In this document: positions 5,505-28,566 of the stretch, piece by piece | Numbering within the stretch: the stretch's first letter is position 1 | Layout of the letters: the number at the start of each line of letters is the position of its first letter | Source of the DNA: Nitrosopumilus sp. | Lineage (GTDB): Archaea; Thermoproteota; Nitrososphaeria; Nitrososphaerales; Nitrosopumilaceae | Direction: 5' to 3' | DNA length: 64,000 nucleotides | NCBI GenBank assembly: GCA_965218695.1 | Contig: OZ244651.1 | Location: 736,001-800,000, forward strand | Notes under the pieces: generated by a model | The model's input: only the letters and a program-made list of their open reading frames with translations | What the model was told of the DNA's origin: nothing | The model's database searches: none | Program-made: the position numbers and the translations under genes

Positions 5505-7448
5505 CTAAACCAGTCCGCCGATCATCTCCTTGATGTGTGGCAGTGCCACGCACAGCGCGGTTCCAAAGGTTGCCATCATGCAGACGTGCACGGTGTGCTT
5601 CATTGTAAAGTACGTTATCTTGGAGACAAGGAGCCCGATGAGTATGGTGCATTCGACTATGAGGAGGCTTGACTGTTTGGCCGTCTCTTCTGTCTGCTCC
5701 GGGGTGGGAAAGTTTATCGGCATTGCCTGGACGGCCTCCAGGTCGCCTGTGACGTTGCCGGTCATCTCCGAGGTTACAACCAGCATCGCCACCATGATTA
5801 TCGGTATGACGTATCCCATGACGACTGACCCGCGCAGCGACGCCATCATCTCACGCCTGGACTCGACATAGTCCTTGACAAAGTTTGTAAACGTCTGCAG
5901 GGAATGGGTGTCGCCGCCGCCGCTCTCCTGCACCTGCGAGAGTACAAAGAAGAGTACTCTTGAGAGCCATGACGTGGTGCGGGCCGACTCTGCAGCGGCT
6001 GCCAATGACTTGCCAAACATCATCTGCCTGGATATGTCGCGCAGTACGGGGCCGAGCGCGTCCCTTTGGCCGTTGCCTCTGGCCCGAGCCGTGACGGCCT
6101 CGTGTATCTCCATGCCCTCCAGCCTGCCGTCGGTGACAAACTGCGCAAACGCCGGCAGCGCGTCATCCATCCTTGATGTGCGAGAGAAGCGACTCCTTGC
6201 CATGAATGCGTTCGTGCCTGCCCATACTGCCGTCGCTGCCCCCAGGACTCCCCAGAGCGGCACGCCTGCAATCATGGCAACCGGAATCGACAGGAATGCC
6301 AGCACAAGCGGTGGGCGGTACAGCGGGACGGCATTGTGCGTCCGCGGCTGCTTGCCGTCGACTGCCACCAGCAGCACTATGATGATTATCGGGAGAAGTA
6401 TCATCACCATTATCGTCATGGACATGGCGTCTTTGCCGGTGGCCACAAACGTGGTAGCTATGGCCAGTATCGGCATGACTGCCATTACCAGCAGCACCAT
6501 CTGGGCGATTCCGTTTGCCTCGGCAGTATAGGACTTTACGCTGTTTCGCATAACGCGGAACGCAGATTCGGTGGCTGCAATCATCGTGTTTGCAGTGTTT
6601 GTGCCGCTCGTGTTGTATGCAGCCGAATAGTTCGTGACTATCTCCCTAAAGTCGTTGTTTGGGTGGGTCTCTGCCACCTTGCGCAGCGCCGTGGTGTGCG
6701 ACATCGCCATGTACCTGACGTTGCGCTGGAATATCAGGGCGTCTTGCCGCAGTATGGGAAAGAGCGCGGTACCGGACCTTGATATCCTTTCTATGAACTC
6801 GTAAAATGACACGCCGACCTTCTCCATTATGCTGGCGCACGCGATGAATACGGGCAGCTCGTGGCCTATTGCGGACTTGCGCTGCGACTTGGCGTTCTTC
6901 AGCTGGAGCAACCCGCTGAACAGTATGGCAACTGGAACGGCGCACAGCCCCAGAAAGCCGGGGTGGAAGAGCATGGCAAGTGCGGCCGCTGCTGCGACTG
7001 ACGGCGGCGCGGACAGCATGGCGTACATTATGCCGTGCCTGGCAATCCTCATGGAGTCGTTGGCGTGTCCGGACTCGAATATCGCCGTGCGCGTCTTTCC
7101 GACCAGGTACTCTTCCAGTCTGCGCACGGGGGCAATTGACATGAAGGGCTTTAGCATCGTCATGGCGCGGTCCGCCGTCACGGGTTGTGCCTCAAGGAGC
7201 GCGCCGAAGCGTCCGTGCCTGACTGCGATGCCAGAACCCGCCGCCTGTGGCTCTTCTTCCCCCTTGTGCGTCCTTGAGAACAACGGCCTGATCCTCTCAC
7301 GAAAGATGGCTGCAATGTCGGTCTGCGTGAGGACCATGAGCGTGATGAATACTGGTGTGGAGATGGCAAACAAGCCGGACTGGCCGAGTGCCATGAATGC
7401 GCCCATGATGCCGAGCATTCCAAGCAGCGAGGTTACGGGGAGGCGCAT
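5505..7448 (-). CDS. Type II secretion system F-family / TadC-ArlJ-like pilus assembly platform protein
   Basis: Polytopic membrane protein with two cytoplasmic domains (IGHELPVFIAC, MDDALPAFAQFVTD, ISRQMMFGKSLAAA). Divergent from a pilin. Start placed at ATG 7448, about 25 nt from a TATA-like TTTAAG. Confidence 0.8.
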   Translation of the reverse strand: MRLPVTSLLGMLGIMGAFMALGQSGLFAISTPVFITLMVLTQTDIAAIFRERIRPLFSRTHKGEEEPQAAGSGIAVRHGRFGALLEAQPVTADRAMTMLKPFMSIAPVRRLEEYLVGKTRTAIFESGHANDSMRIARHGIMYAMLSAPPSVAAAAALAMLFHPGFLGLCAVPVAILFSGLLQLKNAKSQRKSAIGHELPVFIACASIMEKVGVSFYEFIERISRSGTALFPILRQDALIFQRNVRYMAMSHTTALRKVAETHPNNDFREIVTNYSAAYNTSGTNTANTMIAATESAFRVMRNSVKSYTAEANGIAQMVLLVMAVMPILAIATTFVATGKDAMSMTIMVMILLPIIIIVLLVAVDGKQPRTHNAVPLYRPPLVLAFLSIPVAMIAGVPLWGVLGAATAVWAGTNAFMARSRFSRTSRMDDALPAFAQFVTDGRLEGMEIHEAVTARARGNGQRDALGPVLRDISRQMMFGKSLAAAAESARTTSWLSRVLFFVLSQVQESGGGDTHSLQTFTNFVKDYVESRREMMASLRGSVVMGYVIPIIMVAMLVVTSEMTGNVTGDLEAVQAMPINFPTPEQTEETAKQSSLLIVECTILIGLLVSKITYFTMKHTVHVCMMATFGTALCVALPHIKEMIGGLV

Positions 7449-7528
7449 AAATGCGAGGCTTGACGTGCTTAAAAACGGGGGTTCCGCGTGAAAGGCCGCC
7501 CTTATAAGCAAACCATTTTTGCAGTTTA
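7449..7528. promoter_or_regulatory. Divergent archaeal promoters (TadC-like / pilin)
   Basis: CTTATAAG at 7501, about 27 nt before the pilin ATG; TTTTTAAG on the minus strand, about 25 nt before ATG 7448. Leaderless spacing. Confidence 0.55.
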
Positions 7529-8152
7529 ATGAAGTCCACAATAACAAAGTCCACAACAACGAAGAGGGGGAGGAGGAGGGCCGTATCGGCAATCATCGGA
7601 ATCATGCTCGGCCTCGGCCTGACGGCAGTGGCTGCAGGCGGACTGTACGTGATGACCAGCGACCTTTCTGACAGCGCGGTGTCCATAAATTCCGTGGAGG
7701 TGCAAAATGTCAGGGCATACAATACAGGAAACGAGGCATACGTGTCACTGAGCGTCAAGAATACGGGCACGGATGCTGCAACAGACTTGAGTGCAGTTGT
7801 GCTGCTTGCATGCAATGGCGAGGCCAGCGCAGAGGCCACGCTCACCGATGCTGCCCTCAAGGCAGCAACCACGGACTGTGTTGCAGCCCAGTATGCCAAT
7901 CCTCCGACGGCAGCCGTGAATCCGGGAACGCTAGTATCGATGCCCGTGGGTGCGACCATATCCAACTTGGCACCGGGTGAAACCTCCAGCGTGTCAGGAG
8001 GGGTGGCAATCACAGATGCTGCCAGTACGACCGAGCGGGACCCGGGAGAAAATATCGCGTTTGCGGTAGGAAAAGAGTACCTCATAGAGATATCAGGCAC
8101 GACATCGTCAGGCGAGCCTATCGTCCAGACTGCCACAGTCCGCGTACGATAA
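7529..8152 (+). CDS. Archaeal type IV pilin (class III signal peptide)
   Basis: KRGRRRA|VSAIIGIMLGLGLTAVAAGGLYV N-terminus, then SVKNTG motif. Confidence 0.88.
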   Translation: MKSTITKSTTTKRGRRRAVSAIIGIMLGLGLTAVAAGGLYVMTSDLSDSAVSINSVEVQNVRAYNTGNEAYVSLSVKNTGTDAATDLSAVVLLACNGEASAEATLTDAALKAATTDCVAAQYANPPTAAVNPGTLVSMPVGATISNLAPGETSSVSGGVAITDAASTTERDPGENIAFAVGKEYLIEISGTTSSGEPIVQTATVRVR

Positions 8153-12479: not shown

Positions 12480-12491
12480 GCATTCACCACA

Positions 12492-14616: not shown

Positions 14617-15829
14617 GGGTGTGTCCTAGAGGCATATACCCCCGGATGACAAAAGATATGGATCGGCGGATCACGGCATCGCCTAATGACTACAAAGAAA
14701 CGCGACCAACGACAGTACGATTTGGTTCAGCAGTACCTGTCGGGCCTCATGCTGAATACCGTGCTGGGAATAATCAAGAATCTTGGGGATCCGTACGCCG
14801 TCAGGCCCGGCCTGGGCGGCATGACGGCATACCCGCCTGGCGCCATGGCAGCTGTCTGCATCATGCTTGAGGCACAGCGCACGACCTACCGTAAGATGGT
14901 CGGCATCCTCCGAAACAATAGCGCCATGGCAGCCAAGATGGGCCTAGAGAAAATTCCCTCCAAGAGCACGATAGCACGCGCCTACGGCCTGATCCCGGAA
15001 TGGTACCTGGCAGAGGCACACCGGATTGCCATCAGGGAGGTGGAGGCAGGCTCCCTGGCAGCAGACGGTACCGGATACTCGTACCTGCGGTTTGTCAGGT
15101 GGTTTGACGTCAGGACCGACAGTTTTCGTACCAGAAAGGGATGGGTCAAACTGCACGCAATCGTGGATATCCGCACCAGGGTGATAATCGACTGCATGGT
15201 GACTGACAGCGCAGTGGCAGACATAAACGGGCTGTACGCGATGCTCGGCAGGTTAGGCCGGGGCACCGGCGACTTTTGCCTGGATTCTGCATACCTGGCA
15301 AGGCTCATGTGCAACATGATATCTGCGATGGGAATGGTGCCCCGCATCAAGCCAAAATCCAACACCATACGCAACGCCAGGGGAAGCCAGTCGTGGCGCG
15401 AGATGGTAAGCCTGTACATGGATGAACGGGACAGGTTTGACTCGGAATACCACCAGCGCAGCATCATCGAGGCAGTCTTTGCCGCCCTCAAGAAGATGTA
15501 CGGGGACAGCACCAGGTGCCGAAAACACGAGAACCGGACAAGGGAGACTGCGATCCGTGTCATGTGCTACAACATCGAGCTCGTGGCCAGATTGCAGGCA
15601 AAAGACGGCAGGCTCACACAGGATCAAATCGCGACACTTGCAGCATAGCTGGCGCGTTTCACCACGCGCTTCCTAGCGGAGCCTCCGCACCGTGTCTTGG
15701 ATTTGGGGGATTTTATGGGTTGTGGAGGATCGATGGTGCGGCACTGTTGGCGTCGACGGGTTCTGGCACCAATCATGTCTTTGGCATCTTGGCACATGAA
15801 ATGGCATTTTTTATTACTAGGACACACCC
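14617..15829 (+). mobile_element. IS5-like insertion sequence, copy 1
   Basis: IR GGGTGTGTCCTAG / CTAGGACACACCC; 9-bp TSD GCGATTTTG (14608-14616, 15830-15838). Confidence 0.95.
14686..15648 (+). CDS. IS5-like DDE transposase (DDE_Tnp_1)
   Basis: AADGTG, WVKLHAIVD, CLDSAY, YHQRSIIEAVF. Confidence 0.92.
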   Translation: MTTKKRDQRQYDLVQQYLSGLMLNTVLGIIKNLGDPYAVRPGLGGMTAYPPGAMAAVCIMLEAQRTTYRKMVGILRNNSAMAAKMGLEKIPSKSTIARAYGLIPEWYLAEAHRIAIREVEAGSLAADGTGYSYLRFVRWFDVRTDSFRTRKGWVKLHAIVDIRTRVIIDCMVTDSAVADINGLYAMLGRLGRGTGDFCLDSAYLARLMCNMISAMGMVPRIKPKSNTIRNARGSQSWREMVSLYMDERDRFDSEYHQRSIIEAVFAALKKMYGDSTRCRKHENRTRETAIRVMCYNIELVARLQAKDGRLTQDQIATLAA

Positions 15830-15918
15830 GCGATTTTGCTATATCTTTTAAATGATCAGAGCACAAAATAAACATGACTGGAAAGACGGCCCTTTTAAGC
15901 CGGGTGGGCGTGTAGGGC

Positions 15919-17446: not shown

Positions 17447-17782
17447 TTAAATGTATTTTTCTCCCTTTTTCTTGGTGGTGATGTCGACTACACCATCCAT
17501 TGCAGAGATGAAAATCTTGCCATCGCCCGGTGATCCTGTATGCACGGCATCTGTAATTATCGACACTGCCTCGTCTTCCTTGGCATCCTCAATTGCAACA
17601 AAAAATGTCACAACATCATTGTATCGTTCTATGTAACGCCCTAGTCCCGGTTTGATCTTTCTGGGTCCCTTTCCGCGACCCTTTGCAGAGGTTACGGTAA
17701 GGCCGCCAATCCCTGCCTTTTGCAGGGCGTCCACGACGTCTTTTTCCTTAGATGCGGGGACTACCGCGTCAATTCTTTTCAT
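17447..17782 (-). CDS. glnB: P-II family nitrogen regulatory protein
   Basis: MKRIDAVV, GLTVTSAKGRG, HTGSPGDGKIFIS; 111 aa. Confidence 0.93.
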   Translation of the reverse strand: MKRIDAVVPASKEKDVVDALQKAGIGGLTVTSAKGRGKGPRKIKPGLGRYIERYNDVVTFFVAIEDAKEDEAVSIITDAVHTGSPGDGKIFISAMDGVVDITTKKKGEKYI

Positions 17783-18113
17783 GCATTCTTACAAGGACGG
17801 GTTAAAAAGTTTATTTTGTACAGGGTTTGCAGGCTGGTTTTAAAGAAAACTCCATTCCAAGCCAACCACGGCTATCTGGCAATTCCATTGCATCGTCCAT
17901 ACCTCGCTGCAAGGAGTTGGATCTTGAAACTTTTCGGTTGGCTAAGATGATGCTTGTTCGGGGACTTTGGCGTGTCAGTATAGATCCTGTATCGACCGGG
18001 CGATTTCCTGCGGGGCGTACTCGCCGTGCGCCGCCCCGCATCAACCGGCCTTGACAAGAATCCGCAACGGATTAGACGCGGCGCCGTAAATATCTGCCTT
18101 GGGAACGTGCGAC

Positions 18114-18350
18114 ATGGACAGGCTGAATGCGCTTTTGGATGATGCGGCGATGCATGCGTCCACCGCGATAAAGTTCGATAGCCTCGGCACACGGAGCCTC
18201 TCGATTGATGAATACCGGATGGGCATCAAGATCCTGGGTCGCGTCATGAAAGAGTATTCTACCCAAGCGCCGGTCGTCGTGCTGCGGGCAAGGTGCGGCA
18301 GGTACGCGTACAGGATCAAGGTCTTGGAGCGCGCAGAAGGGAGTCAATAA
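18114..18350 (+). CDS. Stand-alone MIT domain protein (Vps4/CdvC N-terminal-like)
   Basis: 78 aa. AAMHASTAIKFDSLG..SIDEY...IKIL....Y....RC.RY..RIKVL three-helix MIT pattern. TAAATAT at about -25. Confidence 0.7.
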   Translation: MDRLNALLDDAAMHASTAIKFDSLGTRSLSIDEYRMGIKILGRVMKEYSTQAPVVVLRARCGRYAYRIKVLERAEGSQ

Positions 18351-18415
18351 ATGCCGGAGGCAGAATGGTGTCAATCGGGAGACCGAATTTGGTGCGGTCT
18401 CTTGGATGCGAGTGT

Positions 18416-18721
18416 TTAATCCATGTGGAGCAGAAACGTCTGCGGTCCGCTGATGCAGATGTCGCCCAGAATGGTGACCTGGCCCGCCGGATGGGCAGCT
18501 GAGCCGACGGCCCCTATCACTACCAGATGCCACCACCTTATCATCCCCATTCGGCGCATCTTGAACGTGACGATCCGCAGGCTCCGATGGACGCTGCCAT
18601 CGGGCCCCAGCGACAAGCACCCTGTTCCAAAGGTCAACAGCGAAAGCAAGACCTCATTAATCTGGTTGCTTGCGACGATGCCGGCGACTGCCAGCAGGGC
18701 GTACCATGCTGGCCGGGACAT
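18416..18721 (-). CDS. Possible small membrane protein
   Basis: Hydrophobic N-terminus; same strand as, and downstream of, the prepilin peptidase. Confidence 0.25.
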   Translation of the reverse strand: MSRPAWYALLAVAGIVASNQINEVLLSLLTFGTGCLSLGPDGSVHRSLRIVTFKMRRMGMIRWWHLVVIGAVGSAAHPAGQVTILGDICISGPQTFLLHMD

Positions 18722-19060
18722 GACTTGGCGGGCTGGCTGGCCGGCGGCAACAAAAGCATACGCGCCGGTTGTGTGTATGAGGTCACCATGTCAGGCCCAG
18801 CCTCATGCCTTGCGGCACCCGTCACTCGTCACAAGGCCGCCGCTTCCGGATTGTGGCCATTCCCCTCCTTTGCAGTGTATCGGATTTGGCCAGCGGAAAT
18901 CCCGCATTCACCGTCAAAACGGTATTTGGCTTTCCGCATGCCCCGAGTCCCTCTTTGGCATGCCATCATAAGTGGCAAATTCGTGTCGACTCTCAGATCC
19001 AACAGGAGTGCGCAGAGCGGTCCCGCACGCAAATATCCGTTCTGGCCTTGACATGTCCAG

Positions 19061-19735
19061 TCAGACAGGCAGAATGGCCCCAACCGGGGAGAGGAGGGCC
19101 AAAGCAACCAGGACAGACGCAGGCACGGCAGCAACGGTAAGAAACGGCACGGCATACTCTACATACTGCGTGTCTGAGGGCTCGGCAAACGCCTGGCCCA
19201 CAGGCTTGTGCCCCAGCTTGAACCTGCGCCTGCCGTCCACGACGTTTTCTGCAAGGAAGGCATGCCTGTCAAACACCCTCTGCCGATGCACCATGAAGAA
19301 CGCCAGACATTTGCGCCACCATTCCTCAGAGACGTCGCCAAACACCCCGCCACGCCTCATGGCATCAGAGGCGTTCAGCAGCGCGTTTCCCGCCACCACC
19401 GACACTGCTGACAGCGCCGTCGCAAATACAAACAATGCCAGCATCGTGGGTATTATGCCCAGATGCACCGGGTGTATCACGGCGCCCGTAATGATGGCAA
19501 GCGCGTCTGCGGTTCCTGCAAGCCTGAGCCTCCACAGCATGACTGCGCCGCCGGCCGAGCACAGCATGACCAGCACCTCGTAGCCGTTTGTGGCCTGCCA
19601 GTCAAGCAGGTATAGCGCGGCTCCTGCGGCGCCGAATGCAAGAAATATCCTGTCGCTTATCATGCGGGTACGGAAATCACACCAGGCAAGCACAAAAAAC
19701 ATGGCCAAAAACAGCACCATGCGGATCTCGTCCAT
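19061..19735 (-). CDS. Prepilin peptidase (A24, PibD/FlaK-like)
   Basis: AWCDFRTRMISD (first Asp), LAGTADALAI (GxGD-like second Asp), C-terminal VPFLT. Confidence 0.85.
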   Translation of the reverse strand: MDEIRMVLFLAMFFVLAWCDFRTRMISDRIFLAFGAAGAALYLLDWQATNGYEVLVMLCSAGGAVMLWRLRLAGTADALAIITGAVIHPVHLGIIPTMLALFVFATALSAVSVVAGNALLNASDAMRRGGVFGDVSEEWWRKCLAFFMVHRQRVFDRHAFLAENVVDGRRRFKLGHKPVGQAFAEPSDTQYVEYAVPFLTVAAVPASVLVALALLSPVGAILPV

Positions 19736-20242
19736 GGAATGGAGCCACGGGGGGCATAAAAGGCATGTCTTTTTGATTGCGGCAGTACCTGGCAGTGCAG
19801 GCGGCATCAGCAAGGGCGTGCTTTGTCTTCAAGGTATGGTCTGATACGTTCCGGCCGTGTTGCCGCACGATGTCGGCAGCCTGCCTCCGCGGTACCGGGT
19901 GCGGCTTGCGACGTGTCTGGTAAAACTAATGTTCACGGTATGGTGTTACCGCCTTTTTGTATGCTTGATCTGGATGTGTCGCAGGCAAGAGTGTTTCCAG
20001 GAGGTCTTTTGTTCCTTAGATTGCTAGCCCGAACAGCAGCGATGCCATGAATCTGCGTGCGGCCTCCTGGTTTTGATCCTGCCATAGGATGTAGCATATC
20101 AGGCCGGTTATTACCCAAAAGAACACGTGACCGGCATACCATAGTTTTGACGGCGTTGCCGGCTTTGGCGGTGGTGGTGGCGCCTCCATGTCATGGCGGA
20201 ACGCTCAGCGTAAAAACCCCTTTTATCTGCCATGATTTCACG

Positions 20243-21499
20243 TATACCAAAAGTGAAAAGTTGATGCGATTGTCACATATTTTACCGCATCTAGAGTTAT
20301 ACCAATTTCACGTCCCACAGTCAATGAAGATCAAGACGATGTTGAAAAGATACACCGCTGAGACAGACTGCGATACCAAGGACCGCATGATGCTGATCAT
20401 CAGAGTCAAACGTGATGGAATAACCATGAGGGATTCTGCAAAATCCCTGGGAAAGTCAGCCTCGTGGGGCTACAAGTGGCATGAGCGCTACCTGGAAGTC
20501 GGATTTGACAGGCTGGGAAACATGCCGCGCTCCGGCAGGCCGACCAAGGCGAGCAAGGCAGACATGAAGAAGATCAGAAAGGCCGCATGCAGTAAACCGG
20601 TCTGGACGGGCAGGGAGATGCAGCAATACATCCAACAGAAGACCGGAGTAAAGTACGAACTCGGATATGTGCGCCAGATACTGCGCGGGTGGGGCTATTC
20701 CCAAAAGGTTCCCGTAGGAAAACATGCAAGAAGGGCACCTGACGAGGAGATCAGGAAATTCCAAAAAGAGATGCCAGAGATTATAAAAAAAGAACAGTGA
20801 AGGAACAGTCGTAGCGATACAGGACGAGTCCATAGTAATCTCCGATGCGCGGCCGCGAAGACGCGGCTACACCAGGAAGGGAATACGGGCGTTTTTCACG
20901 TACACCGGCTCACACTCCAAGACGATAATCCATGGACTAATCACCACGGACGGCAGGGGCATGTTCCGGCAGTACGATGCGTTTACCAAGGACACCTTTG
21001 AGGACTTTCTAAGGCAGGCGATGTACAGGTTCAAGAAGATCTGCCTGATCATGGACAAGGCCTCCCAGCACAGGGCATCAAACATACGCAAACTGCTTGA
21101 TGGCACAGACGGCCTGGAGATAATCTTCCTGCCAACTGCAACCCCGGACCTGAGCGCCATAGAGACGTACTGGAGGGATCTCAAACGGGCAGTGCTTGAC
21201 GTGCCGTACACCAGCCTGAGCATGCTCCGCGAGGCGATCACCCGGTACACGAGGTACAAAAAACCGAATCTGGTAGTCGAGAATTTTCTGTACAGGGCCA
21301 TCTAGAACGACATCAAACCGCACCGGATCCACGCCGCCTAGCGTGTGCCATGCACGGCGCACCAGAGCATGCAATGTCTAATGTTTGGAGCGTCTTTTCT
21401 CGTCATTTGGGAATTCAACGCACCTCGTAATTTCCAGAGACGGCTGTTGCATCAAAAATTTATGAGCGATTTTGATATGAATTTTTCATTGCTGGTATA
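20243..21499 (+). mobile_element. IS630-family element (TA target) inserted after codon 4 of the PrgI-like gene
   Basis: Imperfect IR TATACCAAAAGTGAAAAGTT vs TATACCAGCAATGAAAAATT; TA at both ends. Confidence 0.75.
20323..21305 (+). CDS. IS630 transposase split in two frames at an A7 run (20785-20791)
   Basis: OrfA has HTH and PRSGRP. The +1 frame continues VAIQDES...IMDKASQH...LPTATPDLSAIE. Confidence 0.85.
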
Positions 21500-22175
21500 G
21501 TGTGATTCAAAAGCTGGTCTTCTTTAGGAACACGTCGACGATTAATGAGACGCTGTACAGCAATCCGGTCGGGCAGCTTTCGGTCCGCCAGACGCTGATC
21601 CTCGGGGTCGGGTGCGGTATCATCCTGCTGGGTGCCATGATGACATACAACGCGGAATCAAGGATCATGGACGCTGTATACTATCTTCCTTTACTGATAA
21701 TTCCGCTCGTGCTGGGCCTGTACAAGCCCAAGGTGCTGACGATGGACGAACTGCTCTGCTCCATCATCACCTTTGCGATAAGCGGCTCGTCGGTCAGGCG
21801 GATCTCCAGATCAAGGCCCAAGAGAACCGGCAAGGCAAGAGGCGTCGGCAATTCCAGCAGCCGCATGGGGTACAACACTCTGGAGTGCCAATACGTTCCA
21901 AAGGAGAACATGCGCGCCGTCACGGTGGCAGACCTGACAAAGCCGACGCGCCTAAAGCTGGTGATACAGAGGCCCGACGGCGGAGCGTTCGTAAACCATT
22001 TTGTATCCGTATACCTGGACGGCATCCGCGTCACTGCAATGACTACTGACAGTGCAGGCGAGGTCGAGGCCCTCGTGACGCCGGGAACAGAAGGGGTGCA
22101 TTCGTTGAGGGTCGTGGCAAAGGGGTATGACGAACCTGTCATGGATGGCAAGGTAAAGTTTCAGCGTGGGTGAGT

Positions 22176-22226
22176 GGCACTGGCAATTTATCGGCAGGCG
22201 GCACCTGCCGACAAGTTACCAGTATC
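22176..22226. repeat. 51-bp palindromic mini-element with IS1595-like ends
   Basis: Arms GGCACTGGCAATTTATCGGCAGG and the reverse complement GATACTGGTAACTTGTCGGCAGG (18/23), with a 5-nt spacer. Confidence 0.6.
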
Positions 22227-22325
22227 CTGTGTTTCCAGGGCTCGAGACGATACCATTCCCAGACGGCCCATCGGACATCATGCCGCAATAATCTGCCCCT
22301 TTTAATCAGACCGGCCACACCATAC

Positions 22326-22589
22326 ATGACAAAAGATTTTGGGGCAAGATACAACGGGCACGACGTGGTGCTCAGCGTCGGGGAATCAGTCGCGTGCAGG
22401 AGCGACGGCGGTCATGTGTTTTTCAACATTCCAATCATGGACATACGGCTGGCAGTGCTTGCCGGCAGGACATCGTTCAGGCTCAACTGGCAGGATGGAA
22501 GGAAGGTGATAAACGCGCTTGTCAAGTCAGGGCATTCTGCCCGGATAGTCCAAGAGATACGCCTGACAGGGACAGAGGCAAATGAGTAA
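22326..22589 (+). CDS. Small hypothetical protein (PH-like)
   Basis: MTKDFGARYNG..., TTTTAAT at about -25, overlaps the start of the next gene. Confidence 0.55.
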   Translation: MTKDFGARYNGHDVVLSVGESVACRSDGGHVFFNIPIMDIRLAVLAGRTSFRLNWQDGRKVINALVKSGHSARIVQEIRLTGTEANE

Positions 22590-23898
22590 AGACGGGCAGG
22601 CTGCATGCAATGACGCGCCGCGCTCAGGCGCACAGGGGCCGTGCCCAAAATCAGGCAAGAAAGAGTACGCATCGACGGTCGAAAAGGGCACCGAGTTTGA
22701 GATTCAGGTGGCAGAACTGTTCAGATCATACGGCTACAAGGTCACGCACGACATCACACTTGTCGGAAAGTCTGGCGCGCCGCACCAGATCGACGTGCTT
22801 GCAGAATATGCGGCACCGCTGCATGCCACCAGGATAGCAGTCGAGGCAAAGGCGTACTCGCACAACGTCGTCAAGGACGTCATAATGAAACTTGCAAACA
22901 TACGCGATGATCTTGGCGTTGAGAGGGCCGTACTGGCTACCACCAAGGAGTTCACGTCAGGCGCGCTGACGACGGCGGCCCAGTACGGTTTTCTGGACAT
23001 GTGGAACGGTGACAAAGTAAACGAACTGATGGCAGACAGGGGAATCGACACCAGCGGCATGGGTCTGATGGGAGCTGCCAAGCGATTCATACCGGACAAG
23101 GCCCGTGCCAAGCGCGTCAGGCGCAACGCCGCAAAGTCGGCCAGGAGGAGATCCGGCGGCATGCTGTTTCGAAGGGGGATGCCCAAAGAGCGCATGGCAG
23201 GCGTTAGCCTAGTATCCTATCCGTACCTTGACGTGGCCGTCCAGACACGCATGGCCAGGGTTGAAAAGACCGGGTGGTGGTGGAGGAGGAAGGAATCGGT
23301 GATGCGCACGGTCGTGGATCACGTCACGCTGGACGGTCGCACGGGGGCGCTGGTGGATTTTGCCAAAAACGAGATGTCGTACCAGTACTCTTATCTCGGA
23401 TCTGTCGGCAGGGACGAGATGGCCATGCTCAAGCAGGCAGCAGGCAGACCGACATTCGGAAGAAACGAGATAATTCTCTCCGAGTTGTCGCCGGGCGCTG
23501 CAAACGCCGTGCTGTTGAGACTTGCCAGCCGCGGAATCATAAAACAGGTAAACGAGAAACCTGCAAGGTACGCGCTGAGGGTGCCTGTCCCGACGAGGCC
23601 AAGCAGCGTAACCGGCATAGACAGGCCGTACGGCAGCAGAATGGGGTATGAGAATCCGGGTAATCGCATGATAGGCCTCCGCGTTCCAGTCGGCAGCATA
23701 GAGGAGGGGCTTGGAAAGATCTGGACCGGGTGCAAGGTGGTGTCTGCAGAGCAGGTGTATTATCCATACTACGACGTGCGGTACGAGTCGTCTGACGGCG
23801 GCAGGAGAAACGAGATGGTAGACGGAGTAACCGGCAGGCCGCAGAAATACCTGGCCGAAGCCATGGCAGAAGACGACCAGTCCTTACCTGCAGTGTGA
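22582..23898 (+). CDS. Mrr-like PD-(D/E)XK restriction endonuclease domain protein
   Basis: KGTEFEIQVAELF, GKSGAPHQIDVLA, IAVEAKAY, FTSGA. Confidence 0.82.
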   Translation: MSKDGQAACNDAPRSGAQGPCPKSGKKEYASTVEKGTEFEIQVAELFRSYGYKVTHDITLVGKSGAPHQIDVLAEYAAPLHATRIAVEAKAYSHNVVKDVIMKLANIRDDLGVERAVLATTKEFTSGALTTAAQYGFLDMWNGDKVNELMADRGIDTSGMGLMGAAKRFIPDKARAKRVRRNAAKSARRRSGGMLFRRGMPKERMAGVSLVSYPYLDVAVQTRMARVEKTGWWWRRKESVMRTVVDHVTLDGRTGALVDFAKNEMSYQYSYLGSVGRDEMAMLKQAAGRPTFGRNEIILSELSPGAANAVLLRLASRGIIKQVNEKPARYALRVPVPTRPSSVTGIDRPYGSRMGYENPGNRMIGLRVPVGSIEEGLGKIWTGCKVVSAEQVYYPYYDVRYESSDGGRRNEMVDGVTGRPQKYLAEAMAEDDQSLPAV

Positions 23899-24217
23899 TT
23901 CAACTTGGGGGTCGGCCCGCCGATTGCATTTGCAGGGAAAAAAATTCCCCGCAAGCGTTATCTCGATTGAATTCAGGGAAAACCGGCATCGCCAGACGCT
24001 CCATGCCGGGTACGGCGGACCAAGCAGTCAGGATCCGTGATGCGCCGGACATGCCCGTGCTTGCCGGATCCTTGCATGCCCAATGCATGATTAATCCCGT
24101 CTTGACTGCAACATGACGGGTTCCCTGGTTACCTGGATGCTGTACGCGCCATTCAGGCGTGCTGTCGGGTACCGCAGATGCGCCTCGTCTGTCTACATGT
24201 AGTGGTGGCCTGCCAGG

Positions 24218-24526
24218 CTAGCAAGCAGAATTGGACTGGTTGTATCTGAGTATCCTGCACTCTACCCCGCAATACTTTGCCCCGTGCCTGCGGCCGGTTA
24301 TCCTGTCGCCACACCGGAAGCAACGCGTCGGTGCCTCTCCGTGTCCGTACTTGCCCACAGTGTGGCGGGCGTAGCAAAGCCCATTGCAGTATTTGGCATC
24401 GGCCCTCCTTCCCACGAGTTCCTCCCCGCAGTACGCGCATCTTGTCTTCATGCCGCGCCTGAGTTCCTCTATGAACGCCTCGGTGTCATTGGTTATCATG
24501 CCGCTTGTGCTGTACATCTGGCTCAT
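24218..24526 (-). CDS. Small protein with two treble-clef Zn-finger repeats
   Basis: CAYCG..GRRADAKYCNGLC and CFRCG..GRRHGAKYCGVEC; AT-rich promoter region 24548-24600. Confidence 0.7.
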   Translation of the reverse strand: MSQMYSTSGMITNDTEAFIEELRRGMKTRCAYCGEELVGRRADAKYCNGLCYARHTVGKYGHGEAPTRCFRCGDRITGRRHGAKYCGVECRILRYNQSNSAC

Positions 24527-24721
24527 TGTCGGTTCTCCATACGTATCCTTTATACACATATATGATATATAAATATAATACTTAAAAATACTGTATATGT
24601 GTGATGTGGTACAGGCACCATGACGTCTTGCGCTTTCAGGCATGGACTCTGACGTGCCGACAGGACTCTTGCGTTGGTTGCCGCATCACAGTACCTTATA
24701 CGCAAAATCCACCTTCTCCCC

Positions 24722-24874
24722 ATGAAGTGTTACATATGCAGCAGCAGCAACGACGACGGCGGCGGCGACTGCACGGAATGCGAATCCTGCGGGGCAGTCG
24801 CGTGCAAAGACCACAGCATGACCGGCAACGGCGGCAAAACATACTGCGGTACGTGCATCGCCATACACGGGTAA
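24722..24874 (+). CDS. 50-aa Cys-rich Zn-binding protein
   Basis: CYIC, CTECESC, CKDH, CGTC; CTTATAC at about -26. Confidence 0.6.
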   Translation: MKCYICSSSNDDGGGDCTECESCGAVACKDHSMTGNGGKTYCGTCIAIHG

Positions 24875-24946
24875 GGCGTGCCTGCTTTGCCAACCCCTTT
24901 TTTCCAACTTTTACGGGGAGGGGCAGTGGTAACCTGTAGGCAGGCA

Positions 24947-26436
24947 TAGTATTTTGATTAATGATCCGGACAAATGAGTCCACAAACCCGATCCGCTTCT
25001 TGAGGAAACTGAAAGATTCAGATCACCCGATCCCCTCCGGCCTTCATGCCGCATGCAGAAAGGGTAAGACGTGGGGACGGGTTCCTTCCAGGCTTCAGCC
25101 TGCAGGATCTGCAGGAGATGCGGGACGGGGAACGGGACCCCAAGGCAAGGACGATCCTGCAGGCCGCCATCCATCGTAAGACGGGGCTCTCCCTAGACCG
25201 CATAGTCGATGCGATCGGATTCGTTCGCAGTACGGTGTACGGCTGGCTGGCGCGTCTCGCGGCGGGCGGGGTCGGACGCAGGCACGACCGCAAAAGCCCC
25301 GGCAGGCCGTGCCGGCTGGACGAGAGGCAGAGGGTGCAGCTGGACGGAATCATCCGCGAGAGCCCGGAGAGGTCAGGCTTCCACTCCGACATGTGGATCT
25401 CCCGCATGGTCGCAGGCTGCATATGGAAGGTCTTCGGCGTGCGGTACAGCCCCTCCGGAGCCCTCAGGCTGACGGGCAGGATGGGCTTTTCCGTCAGGAA
25501 ACGCAGGCCCGTGCCGCAGAACACCGCCGGCCGGGATGAGATCGAAAGGTACGTGAAGGAGGCTGCCAGGAAGATCGTGTCCTTCCACCGGAGGGGGCAC
25601 ACGCTCTTCTGCCTGGACGCGTGCACAATCGTCAACTCCCCCGCGCCCAGATACGGGATACTGCCAAGGGGGGAGAGGGACACGACATGCATAAGCCGTT
25701 CGAGGAAGGGGGTTCACGTCCTCGGGGCGCTGGGCAGCGAGTCGGTCGAGCTTGACTATCCGGAGAGCCTGAAGTCGGAGGGGGTCATCGCGTTTCTGAG
25801 GCGCCTGCACGGAAAACACGGCAGGATCCTCGTGATACTGGACAACGCGGGGGCTCACAAGAGCCGGGCCATGGGGAAGTACCTGGAAAGCACGGACGGC
25901 GAAGTGGCGCTGCTCTTCCTGCCGCCGCGCACCCCACAGCACAATCCCATCGAGATGCTGTGGAGGGAGATCAAGAAGGCGATATCGAACACGTATTTTG
26001 ACGGGGAGGACGAAATGAAAGAGAGGATCGCGCGGCTGGTGGGGGAAGGCGGAATTCCCAGAATCCGGCTCCTCTGGTACATGCGTGAGGCCGTCTGCCC
26101 GGCCGAAGGGGCAAGGCCTGCCTCCCTTCCGGCTCCCGTTCCTTCCCACAACCGGGCTCCCGTGGAACCTCCCTGCAGGAAGGGGCGCCCGAGATGCCGC
26201 CTGGCCCTACAGAACCGGGCCCCGGTAGCGTTCTAGCCCCCCGTCTTCCACACGGTCCGGCTGAAAGAGGTCGCCGTCCCCACGCCAGGAAGAGAAAAGA
26301 TGTTCCGAACCGTCTCCGCCTAGGCGGAATGCTGCGAAAATCCTTTCATATGCATCATGATAAATCAATTTGCCAATAGAAAGCACGATTGCCGCAGAAT
26401 TATGACCCGTTGTCCGAATCATTAGTCAAAATACTA
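24947..26436 (+). mobile_element. IS630-family insertion sequence
   Basis: 27-bp IR TAGTATTTTGATTAATGATCCGGACAA (2 mismatches); GGCA on both flanks. Confidence 0.92.
25046..26236 (+). CDS. IS630-family transposase
   Basis: KSPGRP, CLDAC, ILDNAGAH, LPPRTPQHNPIE. Confidence 0.9.
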   Translation: MPHAERVRRGDGFLPGFSLQDLQEMRDGERDPKARTILQAAIHRKTGLSLDRIVDAIGFVRSTVYGWLARLAAGGVGRRHDRKSPGRPCRLDERQRVQLDGIIRESPERSGFHSDMWISRMVAGCIWKVFGVRYSPSGALRLTGRMGFSVRKRRPVPQNTAGRDEIERYVKEAARKIVSFHRRGHTLFCLDACTIVNSPAPRYGILPRGERDTTCISRSRKGVHVLGALGSESVELDYPESLKSEGVIAFLRRLHGKHGRILVILDNAGAHKSRAMGKYLESTDGEVALLFLPPRTPQHNPIEMLWREIKKAISNTYFDGEDEMKERIARLVGEGGIPRIRLLWYMREAVCPAEGARPASLPAPVPSHNRAPVEPPCRKGRPRCRLALQNRAPVAF

Positions 26437-26537
26437 GGCACACCGGACGTGCGACGGCATGTTTGGTTATTTGTAGGCACTGCCAGACGGCATGGACGTG
26501 TAAAGGGAACCTGGACTGACGCTGTGTGCGGGAACCC

Positions 26538-28244
26538 CTACCTGATCTCCGGCCGCCTGCCAATCCTAGACAGAATCCAGTCTATCTGCCTCTGCATGGC
26601 CTCTATTTTTTTGTCATACGTGCCAAGCAGCGCGTCATCCCTGTAGGAGATGGCCTGCCTGCGTGCAAGTTCCTCCATCAGGCTCTTTATCTCGGCGTCC
26701 ATCTCGCCGAGCCTGGCCTCTGAGCCAACGGGACTCTCGCCGCCCAGCATGCTCTCCGTCTTGCTTATGACGTTGATCTTGCCGGATGCCTTTGCGTACT
26801 CCCGGCGCAGCGTATCGGGATACATGGCAGGCTTTTCATAGGAGTCCCTTGGCTTGTGCCCGAGAATAAAGTCGGCCACATACTGCGCACACCCGCAGTC
26901 CATGAGCGTGGTCTTTAACAGATCACGAAGCTCGTGCGCGCGTATCTTGTACATTCTGTTTCCAATCTTCTTCTGCAGCCCGGCATTGACTGCCAGTTTG
27001 CCCATCTCCATCGATATCCAGATGCTTTTGAGGGGCCGGCCGGACCTGACAAACAGCGGACCGTCGGGATCAAAACCCCCACACTCCCCGATGCGCCAGT
27101 CCAGATAATTCTGTATGGCAGTAATGGCATCAGCATCCAGAAAGGTTATGAACCGCACCCCGGTCTTCATCCTGACGAGCCGGATTGGGACAGGGCACCG
27201 GGCCGTCTCCCATGCGGCGTGGTTGTTTGTCCCGAAGTATTTGGCAATCTGGGAATACGCCTCAAAGTTGAATCGGTCTGCAAGCGTGGACGAGTCCAGT
27301 CCGGCCTGAAACTTTACCAGCAGGACTGCCGTCAGCAGTGCAGACGGCTTTCCCTCAGTCAGCATCCGATGCCACTCGTCCAGCGTCAGTCCGCCCTCGT
27401 CTCTCATCTCCTGCGTGTCATGATCCCGCGGGTCGTACTTCATTCCAACAGGGGACTCGTTTTTTGCAAAATATGACATGATTGCAGAAAACGTGGTACT
27501 CATGCTGCTGGGACCGACATCTCTGTGCATCGGGTCTATGAGGTATGTCCTGATGATCCTTGTGACGTCCTTTTTGGATATGGCAGAATCATCAAACATG
27601 GTCAGGAGCTGCTCAACGTTTTCGAACCGGGTCTCAAGGATTCGCTCCTCCAGGGTGTGGTTCCCAACCCGGACGTTCTGCTTGATCGTAAAGGACCTGG
27701 CAGTCAGCCACCTGTCAAAACTGGCAAGACGGCGCACGTACATGGAGCGGGTGGTGTTGCTGCTGTTGTATGATGCAGACGCGTTCCTGTATCGGCTTCC
27801 ACGCAGCTGCCTTTCCCAGTATTGCACGCTTTGGAGGCAGTTTATGTGGGTTCTCTTTGGGGACATGGTCTTTTTGATTATGCCCCGTTTCTGCGCAATG
27901 CTGAGCGCCTGGTAGTGGTAGTTGATGAACGTCGCCTTTGAGCATGATTTGGGCCTGTCAGGCATGTCCCTTTGGATTATCTCGTCGGCAGAGAACCGCG
28001 TCCCGGTGTCTCCAAACCTGTAGACTATCTGTGTGAACCTTTTGGGCATCCTGTCCAGTCTGTCCGGCGTGGGATGCTGGCATACCTCGTATTGTGTGCC
28101 CCATTGTGGAGTCCCGATGGGCTGCTGCTGTTGCCCGTCTCCCGGGATTGGGGATTGCGGCGTGCGGGGTGTTGTCGGTTGCTCCATGATTGCCTTGCGC
28201 AGTTTCTGCGTTCCTTCGTGATGGGCCGTTTTGGCCTTTTTCAT
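26538..28244 (-). CDS. Tyrosine recombinase/integrase
   Basis: RMKTG, RAHELRDLLKT, FILGH, DSYEK. Sits at the boundary between ICE-like and core genes. Start uncertain. Confidence 0.85.
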   Translation of the reverse strand: MKKAKTAHHEGTQKLRKAIMEQPTTPRTPQSPIPGDGQQQQPIGTPQWGTQYEVCQHPTPDRLDRMPKRFTQIVYRFGDTGTRFSADEIIQRDMPDRPKSCSKATFINYHYQALSIAQKRGIIKKTMSPKRTHINCLQSVQYWERQLRGSRYRNASASYNSSNTTRSMYVRRLASFDRWLTARSFTIKQNVRVGNHTLEERILETRFENVEQLLTMFDDSAISKKDVTRIIRTYLIDPMHRDVGPSSMSTTFSAIMSYFAKNESPVGMKYDPRDHDTQEMRDEGGLTLDEWHRMLTEGKPSALLTAVLLVKFQAGLDSSTLADRFNFEAYSQIAKYFGTNNHAAWETARCPVPIRLVRMKTGVRFITFLDADAITAIQNYLDWRIGECGGFDPDGPLFVRSGRPLKSIWISMEMGKLAVNAGLQKKIGNRMYKIRAHELRDLLKTTLMDCGCAQYVADFILGHKPRDSYEKPAMYPDTLRREYAKASGKINVISKTESMLGGESPVGSEARLGEMDAEIKSLMEELARRQAISYRDDALLGTYDKKIEAMQRQIDWILSRIGRRPEIR

Positions 28245-28566
28245 TGTTCTTCCTCTCCATTTCCCTATATGAGGTCGTACTATGGAGCGCCATCGGCATG
28301 CGGCGGCAGGCGGATGGCATTTCCAAGGGATCTGGCACGCCGCGATGCAGAAAGCGCCTGTCATGGCGTCGTCTGTCCGCTCCCGATACCAGCATCATGC
28401 AAGGGACGGGCAACTTTTGGAATAATTCGCTTTGGGACCAAGCAGCAGACAGATTTCGTAACTGGTTAGGTTCACGACTGGATTTTGAGGTCAACAGACA
28501 GCGAACCTAACCTTTTACACAGATTTCTCCCTCAGACTTTATCTATTACCGGAACACCACACCATC

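What the first reader, a model, noticed from the sequence alone, without database searches (positions are those of the whole stretch)
18114..18350. Mobile element encodes a stand-alone Vps4/CdvC-type MIT domain, a candidate ESCRT-III decoy or adaptor
Seen: a 78-aa gene with its own TATA box, lying among ICE genes, with no AAA domain. Its pattern A..AIKFDS.G.R...I..Y...I..L...RC..Y..RI..L matches my recollection of the thaumarchaeal CdvC N-terminal MIT domain. Established: MIT domains bind ESCRT-III (CdvB) MIM tails, and ESCRT drives archaeal division and vesicle release. Inference: the element may block CdvC or recruit host ESCRT-III for membrane remodelling during transfer, division arrest or vesicle export. 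A host cdvB paralog lies at 46463-47119.
Basis: partly seen in the sequence, partly recalled or inferred. Interest (0 to 1): 0.75.

Follow-up and report, generated by a model that had tools for sequence, protein, structure and literature searches.

The report
Stand-alone MIT domain on archaeal ICE
A mobile element in an ammonia-oxidising archaeon carries a tiny gene that is a fast-evolving copy of the part of the cell-division ATPase CdvC that grips ESCRT-III, so the element may interfere with the host's division machinery, although binding has not been shown.

Summary
Window 18114-18350(+) encodes a 78-aa protein that is an MIT three-helix bundle and nothing else. It is 38% identical to the MIT domain of the host's CdvC. 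AlphaFold2 gives pLDDT 93, and the best fold matches are the Sulfolobus CdvC MIT structures. No AAA-ATPase remnant lies nearby.

It is not an orphan. A profile search found 65 short relatives, 42 of them 76-78 aa long. On a tree these solo proteins form one clade nested among CdvC MIT domains of the same archaeal family, on branches several times longer.

The gene lies in a roughly 50-kb, IS-riddled integrative-conjugative island with VirB4-like, FlaI/PilT-like, TadC-like, ArdC-N, TFIIB and integrase genes. A related species carries a homologous island with its own solo MIT, 31% identical.

Fourteen CdvC-conserved residues survive in all three solo types. They sit mostly on helices 1 and 3, where MIM2 tails bind. 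Host CdvB tails carry a conserved MIM2-like motif.

The decoy or adaptor function remains inference: the complex prediction gave no verdict, no RNA data exist, and one relative holds only broken copies.

Verdict: a real, apparently undescribed mobile-element-borne derivative of Vps4/CdvC, of moderate to high interest.

The parts
18114..18350 (+). Solo MIT gene (78 aa, 'type A'): a three-helix MIT domain with no other domain.
   Evidence: ORF. Pfam MIT E 1.7e-4, full length. 38% identical to host CdvC MIT, E 2e-14. AF2 pLDDT 93.4 with helices 2-24, 27-47, 54-76. Foldseek top hits 2w2u and 2v6y, TM 0.86-0.92.
18087..18093 (+). TATA-like box TAAATAT, 20 nt upstream of the ATG. The spacing fits a leaderless or near-leaderless archaeal transcript (inference).
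   Evidence: Sequence. One of only two A/T-only heptamers in 17851-20000.
17856..28518 (.). Segment absent from the orthologous site of the nearest species G002. It runs from just right of the P-II gene to the integrase. The solo MIT lies at its left edge.
   Evidence: G002 aligns to 16334-17855 (83-87%) and again from 28519 (94%). Between these, G002 holds about 2 kb with another integrase remnant and an IS.
26538..28364 (-). Tyrosine-recombinase-like integrase (608 aa) at the right end of the island.
   Evidence: Pfam Phage_integr_3 and Phage_integrase, E 2e-3 and 3e-3, both below cut-off. PHROG 1 integrase, E 3.9e-5. 65% identical homologue in the G002 island.
19061..19813 (-). Polytopic membrane protein, weakly prepilin-peptidase-like (A24).
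   Evidence: Pfam Peptidase_A24, E 5e-3, 17.6 bits against a cut-off of 26.5.
21502..22173 (+). PrgI/VirB3-like membrane protein.
   Evidence: Pfam PrgI, E 3.8e-5, 24.6 bits against a cut-off of 27.
22582..23898 (+). Mrr_cat restriction-endonuclease-fold protein (island cargo).
   Evidence: Pfam Mrr_cat, E 1.1e-15. A 72% identical fragment lies in the G002 island.
5505..7592 (-). TadC/PilC-like (T2SSF) membrane protein of the conjugation/pilus module.
   Evidence: Pfam T2SSF, E 9.6e-11. 80% identical homologue in the G002 island.
20057..21499 (+). IS630-family insertion sequence. Its transposase is split into HTH and DDE_3 ORFs. It is multi-copy in G002.
   Evidence: Pfam. At least 12 copies at 81-98% identity in G002.
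25046..26236 (+). Second IS630-family transposase (396 aa).
   Evidence: Pfam DDE_3, E 1.3e-19. Very high contig depth in public runs.
14617..15829 (+). IS with a DDE_Tnp_1 transposase, multi-copy in relatives.
   Evidence: Pfam. At least 10 copies in G002.
46463..47119 (+). Host CdvB (ESCRT-III) paralog, outside the island. It is a candidate ligand through its C-terminal tail.
   Evidence: Pfam Snf7, 27.7 bits. Relatives named Snf7/CdvB.
47048..47074 (+). MIM2-like motif IPDVPDSLK (residues 196-204) in the CdvB tail. I, P, D, P, L and K are invariant in 14 of 14 aligned orthologues.
   Evidence: Alignment A6. MIM2 core defined as phi-P-x-phi-P in PMC8970359 (passages) and PMC5840170 (passages).

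Best explanation
Shown:
- The gene encodes a free-standing MIT domain.
- It belongs to a monophyletic family of 76-78-aa proteins that arose once from the N-terminal MIT domain of a Nitrosopumilaceae cdvC (Vps4).
- The family has since evolved several times faster than the cdvC MIT domain.
- In this genome, and in the nearest species, it is carried by homologous IS-riddled integrative-conjugative islands.

Inferred:
- The protein keeps the helix-1/helix-3 groove that archaeal CdvC uses to hold proline-rich MIM2 tails.
- It therefore binds the MIM2-like tails of the host ESCRT-III proteins (the CdvB paralogs, and in Thaumarchaeota probably also CdvA).
- It has no ATPase and no second domain, so once bound it would occupy the sites through which CdvC is recruited.
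- It would then act as a competitive decoy that slows CdvC-driven ESCRT-III turnover. This would delay division or change membrane scission while the element is active.

The benefit to the element is speculation. It could be more time or more copies for transfer, or interference with a rival that buds from the cell.
For: MIT identity. Pfam match over the full length. PDB sequence hits to CdvC MIT domains. 38% identity to the host CdvC MIT with no gap, E 2e-14. AF2 three-helix bundle at pLDDT 93.4. Foldseek ranks 1-3 are archaeal CdvC MIT structures, rmsd 1.2-1.4 A.

Not a stump. No AAA remnant. The stop-to-stop frame is 86 aa. Codon-position GC is typical of genes.

A maintained family. 65 short relatives at E <= 1e-3 among 104 candidates, 42 of them 76-78 aa long. 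The 38 'type C' members aligned are 73-90% identical to their first member.

Single origin. The solos form one clade with support 95/92, found in 94% of 200 bootstrap trees. The clade sits inside the family's CdvC MIT radiation (100/97 and 99/91) but outside the genus CdvC clade (97/89). Path lengths are 1.9-3.8 changes per site, against about 0.3-0.5 for CdvC (the earlier tree agrees on monophyly at 90/88).

Groove retention. Of 40 positions at least 90% conserved in 44 CdvC MIT sequences, 14 are kept in all three solo types. These are L7, A11 and A15 on helix 1, D22 and G25 at the turn, I31, Y34, I38 and L41 on helix 2, and R60, Y64, R67, I68 and L71 on helix 3. Eleven positions differ from the CdvC consensus in all three types; two of them carry the same new residue in every type (Y14 to H, A37 to G). 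MIM2 binds between helices 1 and 3 (PMC5840170, passages).

Ligands exist. All three CdvB paralogs, and the Snf7-like ORF next to cdvC, end in phi-P-x-phi-P-type motifs. The motif of the window's CdvB is conserved across the genus.

Mobile context. VirB4-like AAA_10/DUF87, a pilin, a T2SSE ATPase, ArdC-N and TFIIB lie 18-40 kb upstream. TadC-like, PrgI-like and A24-like genes and an integrase lie in the window. An alternative occupancy of the site is seen in G002.

Replicate. G002 has a homologous island. Its proteins are 47-80% identical to those of this island, and it holds its own solo MIT.
Against: - No binding evidence of any kind. No expression evidence.
- Type A is a singleton: only itself at more than 40% identity in two very large protein libraries.
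- Solo genes are rare among species representatives: 3 of 151 genomes of the genus. Type C was found in 1 of 401 genomes of the class. No short-frame MIT other than the window's own appeared in 61 genomes of the family at E <= 1e-8 with the CdvC MIT as query (the sample did not include G002 or G018).
- In G018 both copies are broken, one by a frameshift and one by truncation. So the gene can be lost without obvious penalty.
- Fast evolution fits relaxed constraint as well as conflict.
- Pfam scores are below the curated cut-off (22.1 and 26.9 against 30).
- The AF2 alignment contained CdvC MIT domains, so the fold result is not fully independent.
- The groove argument rests on helix spacing, not on a mapped structure.
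Confidence: 0.42

Rival explanations
1. Hitch-hiking relic. A fragment of cdvC was captured by a mobile element or IS and is carried along, or slowly decays, with no function of its own.
For: - Both G018 copies are broken.
- All loci examined are IS graveyards.
- Branches are very long.
- Solo genes are rare among species representatives.
- Type A is a singleton.
Against: - A neutral fragment that had diverged to 31-38% identity should not keep an open frame trimmed exactly to the domain.
- It should not keep a confident three-helix fold, gene-like codon-position GC, or 14 conserved CdvC positions in all three types.
- 42 of 65 relatives share the 76-78-aa length, and type C members stay 73-90% identical.
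- The solos form a single old clade rather than repeated recent stumps.
Confidence: 0.2
2. Adaptor or regulator with another partner. The solo MIT binds an element-encoded protein, or links ESCRT-III to the element's transfer or vesicle machinery (for example as a dimer), rather than simply blocking CdvC. The substitutions shared by all solo types would retune its specificity.
For: - Two substitutions are shared by all solo types at positions conserved in CdvC (Y14 to H, A37 to G), and nine further CdvC-conserved positions have changed in all three types.
- ESCRT-dependent vesicles carry plasmid DNA in Sulfolobus (bioRxiv 10.1101/2021.02.09.430445, abstract seen in the listing).
- A scan of island ORFs for phi-P-x-phi-P found 2 hits: in the ArdC-N protein, and in a 1660-aa ORF with no Pfam match.
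Against: - 78 aa leave no second domain.
- The two island motif hits are internal rather than C-terminal, and are what chance would give.
- No conserved neighbour gene accompanies the solo MIT in both islands. It lies next to P-II and an A24-like gene in G000, and next to a RING-like 85-aa ORF in G002.
Confidence: 0.2
3. Defence or exclusion cargo. The island expresses the MIT decoy to block ESCRT-dependent budding of a virus or vesicle-borne rival, which would benefit the host and the island together.
For: - The gene sits among typical conflict cargo: an Mrr-type nuclease, a GHKL ATPase pair and ArdC-N.
- Fast evolution fits an arms race.
Against: - No known defence family was tested or matched for this gene.
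- No evidence here that viruses of these archaea use ESCRT.
- tblastn found no relative in 50,697 phage or 72,556 plasmid records.
Confidence: 0.1

Closest known systems
N-terminal MIT domain of archaeal CdvC/Vps4 (structures 2w2u and 2v6y; host gene G000:C1:2343353-2344543)
   Same: Same fold (TM 0.86-0.92, rmsd 1.2-1.4 A). Clear homology: 38% identity with no gaps. The conserved helix-1 and helix-3 residues are shared. The solos nest inside the family's CdvC MIT tree.
   Different: There is no linker, AAA ATPase or Vps4_C domain, so it cannot unfold or recycle ESCRT-III. It is encoded on a mobile island. It evolves several times faster. It carries Y14H and A37G, substitutions shared by all solo types.
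Eukaryotic MIT-domain cofactors that read ESCRT-III tails (MITD1, spastin, Vta1 and others)
   Same: An MIT domain used away from Vps4 to dock on ESCRT-III tails. MITD1 and Spartin structures are among the fold hits. MITD1 recruitment by ESCRT-III: abstract of PMC3496609, seen in the listing.
   Different: Those proteins join the MIT domain to an effector or dimerisation domain, and they are host genes. This one is the bare domain on a mobile element, so a blocking role is more natural than a recruiting one.
Virus-encoded homologues of the host cell-cycle regulator aCcr1 in Sulfolobales
   Same: A mobile element carries a small copy of a host division-control component. Overexpression affects division (abstracts of PMC9976878 and PMC9976892, seen in the listing).
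   Different: aCcr1 is a DNA-binding RHH repressor that acts on cdv transcription. The solo MIT would act on the ESCRT-III protein polymer itself. No experiment exists for it.
Thaumarchaeal integrative-conjugative elements (Krupovic et al. 2019, PMC6563490)
   Same: The gene set matches: VirB4-like ATPase, VirB3-like and TadC-like membrane proteins, FlaI/PilT-type ATPase, prepilin-peptidase-like protein, pilin, TFIIB homologue and integrase. The size is about 50 kb (section 12 of the paper read).
   Different: No ParB and no separate VirD4 were found in the island. It is heavily invaded by IS elements. The words MIT, Vps4, ESCRT and Cdv do not occur in that paper's main text. Its supplementary annotation could not be seen.

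Membership tests
MIT domain (Pfam PF04212) | Sequence match to the family profile at the curated threshold. | tested here: not met
   22.1 bits against a cut-off of 30, but E 1.7e-4 over profile positions 1-65 of 66. Type C P0002 scores 26.9 bits. The host's genuine CdvC reaches only 33.6. About half of the type C clusters carry a precomputed PF04212 label.
MIT domain (Pfam PF04212) | Asymmetric three-helix bundle of about 70-80 residues. | tested here: met
   AF2 pLDDT 93.4, pTM 0.82, three helices. Foldseek ranks 1-10 are all MIT domains, and the top three are archaeal CdvC MIT structures. Caveat: the alignment used for folding included CdvC MIT sequences.
MIT domain (Pfam PF04212) | Binds MIM motifs of ESCRT-III tails. 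| not testable with these tools
   Needs a binding experiment. Only indirect support: conserved helix-1 and helix-3 residues and MIM2-like host tails.
CdvC/Vps4 AAA ATPase | AAA+ ATPase and Vps4_C domains following the MIT domain. | tested here: not met
   The frame is 86 aa stop to stop. There is no AAA similarity in the window (best E 1.6) or next to the gene (best E 0.43). It is a derivative of CdvC, not a member.
Thaumarchaeal ICE | VirB4/TrbE-type ATPase. | tested here: met
   G000:C1:717975-719480, 501 aa: AAA_10 63.7 bits, DUF87 50.6 bits, P-loop_TraG 46.7 bits. It lies 35 kb from the MIT gene, with IS elements between.
Thaumarchaeal ICE | VirD4/TraG-type coupling ATPase as a second signature gene. 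| tested here: not met
   The TraG-D_C family hits lie elsewhere in the genome (C1:1820775 and a weak one at 529753), not in the island. Only that one family was searched.
Thaumarchaeal ICE | Membrane and pilus components: TadC, VirB3, prepilin peptidase, pilin, FlaI/PilT ATPase. | tested here: met
   T2SSF 42.2 bits. T2SSE 80.6 bits. PrgI 24.6 bits, Peptidase_A24 17.6 bits and Pilin_N 20.5 bits are all below their cut-offs.
Thaumarchaeal ICE | TFIIB homologue, usually with ParB. | tested here: inconclusive
   TFIIB hit of 26 bits (over the cut-off) at C1:714829-714999, 3 kb from the VirB4-like gene. The ParB_N hits lie outside the island.
Thaumarchaeal ICE | Integrase at an end, and a site that is empty or differently filled in a relative. 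| tested here: met
   Integrase-like gene at 26538-28364, next to the point where 94% identity with G002 resumes at 28519. G002 lacks 17856-28518 at that site. No att repeats and no excision joint were found.

The most novel reading that the evidence does not exclude
Mobile elements of ammonia-oxidising archaea carry a fast-evolving family of ESCRT-III decoys. These are bare MIT domains stolen once from the host's Vps4/CdvC. They cap the MIM2 tails of CdvB/CdvA and so hold back division or membrane scission for the element's benefit. This would be the first natural protein antagonist of a prokaryotic ESCRT machine. It would also be a ready-made genetic tool for archaea that cannot yet be manipulated.
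Probability: 0.27. Interest if true: 0.82.

Novelty: new variant of a known kind. Interest (0 to 1): 0.62.

Why it matters
ESCRT-III and Vps4 divide these abundant nitrifying archaea, and the same system is the ancestor of the eukaryotic machinery. No natural inhibitor or mobile-element manipulation of the protein machine itself turned up in my five literature searches or in the four papers I read in part.

A 78-aa domain that competes with CdvC would do three things. It would show that conjugative elements target archaeal cytokinesis. It would give an arms-race data set of about fifty variants for mapping MIT-MIM2 specificity. It would offer a simple dominant-negative probe for organisms without genetics.

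If instead it proves inert, it is still a clean, datable case of domain capture from an essential host gene by a mobile element.

Tried and rejected
Complex prediction. Solo MIT (alignment A4) was folded with CdvB residues 165-218 (alignment A6). The verdict was 'no answer', scores 0.01 and 0.02 against a mark of 0.32, and the controls were not run. This is neither support nor evidence against binding.

Expression. No listed run that holds the locus is on record as RNA.

Public runs. Contigs of X1 and X3 cover 15803-20269 with 0 differing letters, but they may come from the window's own source sample. X5 and X6 hold only parts. The listed joints have short sides (21-48 letters) or fall at IS elements. 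None is a credible empty site or excision joint.

cdvC pseudogene idea. Rejected: no AAA remnant.

'Derived within the genus'. My first tree suggested this. It was withdrawn after I added CdvC from 21 other genera of the family. The genus CdvC then forms its own clade, 97/89, without the solos.

Searches that found no relatives:
- The search for related loci with A2 in genome contigs.
- The search for related loci with A5 in viral contigs and in metagenome contigs.
- The search for related loci with A5 in genome contigs found only the two broken G018 copies.
- tblastn of P0001 and P0002 against the plasmid and phage collections: no match.

Other blanks. Rfam: no family in the window. No tRNA in the window. 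PHROGs matched only the integrase among 10 island proteins. Pfam gave nothing for the 773-, 353-, 341-, 647-, 368- and 1660-aa island ORFs. The protein atlas returned MIT/katanin-MIT clusters at 0.93, a lead only.

Short frames. Five further short frames (118-203 aa; G020, G024, G107, G119, G137) score like CdvC. I took them to be cdvC genes cut by contig ends and did not check each one. One further match in that call was not listed. G061 shows two pieces at contig ends, and G136 shows two full copies.

Rows left out of the trees:
- One search used 16 type C proteins, picked across the hit list from the 40-odd type C proteins, plus 9 genus and 14 order-level CdvC.
- One search used the same 16, 10 genus, 26 family and 8 of the 14 order-level CdvC. 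L030, L031, L034, L036, L041 and L042 were dropped to limit size and long branches.

Unpublished genome. The tally (60 of 61) includes one unpublished genome, G478. No other claim rests on it.

Supplements. The supplementary annotation tables of PMC6563490 and PMC8970359 could not be seen. They might list such a gene.

Full report
WHAT IS THERE

Window 18114-18350(+) is an ATG-started ORF of 78 codons. The frame is open for only 86 codons from stop to stop, so nothing can be fused to it. GC at codon positions 1/2/3 is 0.54/0.43/0.72, the pattern of Pfam-supported genes in the window. TAAATAT lies at 18087-18093, 20 nt before the ATG. It is one of only two A/T-only heptamers in 17851-20000. The position suits an archaeal TATA box for a leaderless message, but chance would give this about 6% of the time. 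Public-run contigs reproduce 15803-20269 without a single difference. They may come from the source sample, so this rules out only a private assembly error.

IT IS AN MIT DOMAIN AND NOTHING ELSE

- Pfam MIT matches end to end (profile positions 1-65 of 66) at E 1.7e-4. The score of 22.1 bits is below the curated 30. The host's genuine CdvC reaches only 33.6.
- The best solved-structure sequence hits are the Sulfolobus CdvC MIT domains 2w2u and 2v6y.
- The own genome holds two MIT domains: this gene, and CdvC at C1:2343353-2344543, a 397-aa MIT+AAA+Vps4_C protein.
- The two align without a gap, 27 of 72 identical, E 2e-14.
- AlphaFold2 gives three helices (2-24, 27-47, 54-76), pLDDT 93.4 and pTM 0.82.
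- Foldseek ranks the archaeal CdvC MIT structures first (TM 0.86-0.92, rmsd 1.2-1.4 A), followed by eukaryotic Vps4, MITD1 and Spartin MIT domains. The folding alignment included CdvC MIT sequences, so this is corroboration, not independent proof.
tblastn with the AAA part of CdvC finds nothing in the window (best E 1.6) or beside the gene (best E 0.43, inside the P-II gene).

IT HAS A FAMILY

Single-sequence searches found almost nothing. The word-indexed library returned only the protein itself. The exhaustive phmmer search of 1.8 billion representatives found two other proteins: a 78-aa one (P0002) and a frameshifted cdvC (P0003).

A genus-wide six-frame search showed a second solo gene of 76 aa in G002, and two extra hits in G018. 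A profile of the three solo proteins then recovered 65 short proteins among 104 candidates. Forty-two of them are 76-78 aa long.

They fall into three types:
- Type A is the window protein, a singleton.
- Type B is G002's protein and P0004.
- Type C has about fifty 90%-identity clusters. The 38 members aligned are 73-90% identical to the first.

The three types are 30-40% identical to one another and to CdvC MIT.

ORIGIN

The tree had 62 rows: 18 solos, 10 CdvC of the genus, 26 of other genera of the family and 8 of other families.
- The solos form one clade, support 95/92, found in 94% of 200 bootstrap trees.
- This clade lies inside the family's CdvC MIT radiation (100/97 and 99/91).
- It lies outside the clade of the genus's own CdvC (97/89).
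- Types A and B are sisters (92/88).
- Path lengths from the shared node are about 1.9 (type C) to 3.8 (type A) changes per site, against roughly 0.3-0.5 for CdvC.

I read this as one capture of a Nitrosopumilaceae cdvC N-terminus, followed by long, fast evolution as a free domain. The caveats are 82 columns, long branches that may attract each other, and a bootstrap that had not fully settled.

The genus is Nitrosopumilus according to the titles and names that sources give to relatives.

WHAT IS KEPT AND WHAT IS CHANGED

Forty positions are at least 90% conserved in 44 CdvC MIT sequences.
- Kept in all three solo types (14): L7, A11 and A15 on helix 1; D22 and G25 at the turn; I31, Y34, I38 and L41 on helix 2; R60, Y64, R67, I68 and L71 on helix 3.
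- Different from the CdvC consensus in all three types (11). Two of them carry the same new residue in every type: Y14 to H and A37 to G.

The i/i+4/i+7 stripes on helices 1 and 3 are what one expects if the helix-1/helix-3 groove is preserved. That groove is where archaeal CdvB MIM2 binds CdvC (PMC5840170, passages). From memory only: in human VPS4A the residue equivalent to A15 is the one whose mutation abolishes MIM2 binding. I did not map the residues on a structure.

LIGANDS ARE AVAILABLE

The genome has three CdvB paralogs and a weaker Snf7-like ORF next to cdvC. All end in phi-P-x-phi-P-type motifs. Published analyses treat this as the MIM2 core, and assign it to most thaumarchaeal CdvB homologues and to CdvA (PMC8970359, passages). 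In the window's CdvB (46463-47119), the residues I, P, D, P, L and K of the motif IPDVPDSLK are invariant in 14 of 14 orthologues.

MOBILE CONTEXT

G002 is the nearest species: CdvC 97.5% identical, and flanking core proteins 92-93%.
- G002 aligns with window 16334-17855 and again from 28519 at 94% identity. The 10.7 kb between is missing there. In its place are an integrase remnant and an IS.
- The G000-only segment starts with the solo MIT and ends with an integrase-like gene. In between lie an A24-like membrane protein, a PrgI/VirB3-like protein, an Mrr-type nuclease and two IS630 elements.
- To the left, in the window, are a TadC-like gene and several unknown ORFs. Further upstream in the genome are ArdC-N, a T2SSE ATPase, a VirB4-like ATPase, a pilin-like gene and a TFIIB homologue.

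This is the gene set described for thaumarchaeal ICEs (PMC6563490, section 12 read). ParB and a separate VirD4 were not found in the island. The whole runs to about 50 kb, C1:714-764 kb, and IS elements riddle it.

G002 has a homologous island at 1.06-1.18 Mb. Protein identities to this island are integrase 65%, Mrr fragment 72%, the 368-aa ORF 68%, the 647-aa ORF 52%, the 113-aa ORF 47% and TadC 80%. The type B solo MIT lies between the integrase and the Mrr fragment. So two related islands each carry a solo MIT, and that gene (31% identical) is their most diverged shared gene.

EVIDENCE THAT CUTS THE OTHER WAY

- In G018 both type C copies are dead. One is frameshifted beside an IS, and one is truncated after 29 codons.
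- Solo genes occur in 3 of 151 genomes of the genus. Type C occurs in 1 of 401 of the class. No short-frame MIT other than the window's own was found in 61 genomes of the family, a sample that did not include G002 or G018.
- None occurs in the phage or plasmid collections.
- I could not read the context of the many type C proteins. I could not compute dN/dS. I found no RNA evidence. The one complex prediction gave no verdict.

READING

A neutral stump would not stay open, domain-sized, well folded and conserved at the same fourteen positions across three lineages that have diverged to about 35% identity. I therefore take the family as functional, or as recently functional (about 0.8). The most economical mechanism for a bare MIT domain is occupation of MIM2 tails in competition with CdvC (0.42). 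Rivals are an inert relic (0.2), an adaptor with another partner (0.2) and defence or exclusion cargo (0.1).

NOVELTY

Five full-text searches turned up no stand-alone or mobile-element-borne MIT protein in archaea. Partial reading of four papers gave the same result: the thaumarchaeal mobile-element survey, the 2024 ESCRT diversity survey, the Cdv review and the Cdv domain-architecture study. The nearest concept in print is the viral copy of the division regulator aCcr1 in Sulfolobales (abstracts seen in the listing).

I rate this a new variant of a known kind, with interest 0.62.

Noticed in passing
window 11545-11720 and 18890-19006: A repeat of about 120-175 nt, with two copies in the window. 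The second lies 540 nt downstream of the solo MIT. Three more copies occur in G000, all in the same orientation, and at least 9 occur in G002, where two copies flank its solo MIT gene. There is no Rfam hit, and the RNA fold z-score is only -2.1. It could be a MITE, an IS end or a small RNA.
   Followed up: partly
window 14013-14147: Another short repeat of about 135 nt, with several copies at 80-90% identity in G002 and G018.
   Followed up: no
L019 (G018:C1:720927-721103) and L020 (G018:C1:230464-230553): Two broken type C solo MIT genes in one genome. One is frameshifted next to a 413-aa DDE transposase, the same IS as window 38105-39346. The other is cut off after 29 codons by low-GC DNA.
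   Followed up: yes
window 17447-17782 (-): A P-II nitrogen-regulator gene sits inside the variable region. It is 87% identical to G002 at the DNA level, against 94% for the flanking core, so it may be island cargo rather than a core gene.
   Followed up: partly
window 11973-13886 (-): A 464-aa GHKL (HATPase_c_3) protein with a 168-aa partner is inserted, together with repeats and an IS, between two genes that are adjacent in the G002 island. This may be a defence cassette.
   Followed up: no
G000:C1:2342278-2345752 (L001/L047): The host cdvC is flanked by a ParB_N-domain gene on one side. On the other side is a roughly 210-aa weakly Snf7-like ORF that ends in a proline-rich YPNVDPSVPY tail.
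   Followed up: partly
G000:C1:732228-737210 (window up to 1210, +): A 1660-aa ORF spans the start of the window. It has no Pfam match and contains an internal VPELP motif.
   Followed up: partly
G235, G258, G262 (genus g30): These genomes carry a second full-length (about 400-aa) CdvC-like gene. Its MIT domain is only 51-52% identical to the query. This is a cellular paralog, unlike the solos.
   Followed up: no
whole genome G000: Genome GC is 52.8%, although sources name its relatives Nitrosopumilus. From memory, that genus is usually AT-rich.
   Followed up: no
L018 10132-10389 (-), G002: An 85-aa cysteine-rich ORF overlaps the end of G002's solo MIT gene on the opposite strand. It matches RING-variant and zinc-finger families weakly, at E about 1e-3.
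   Followed up: no
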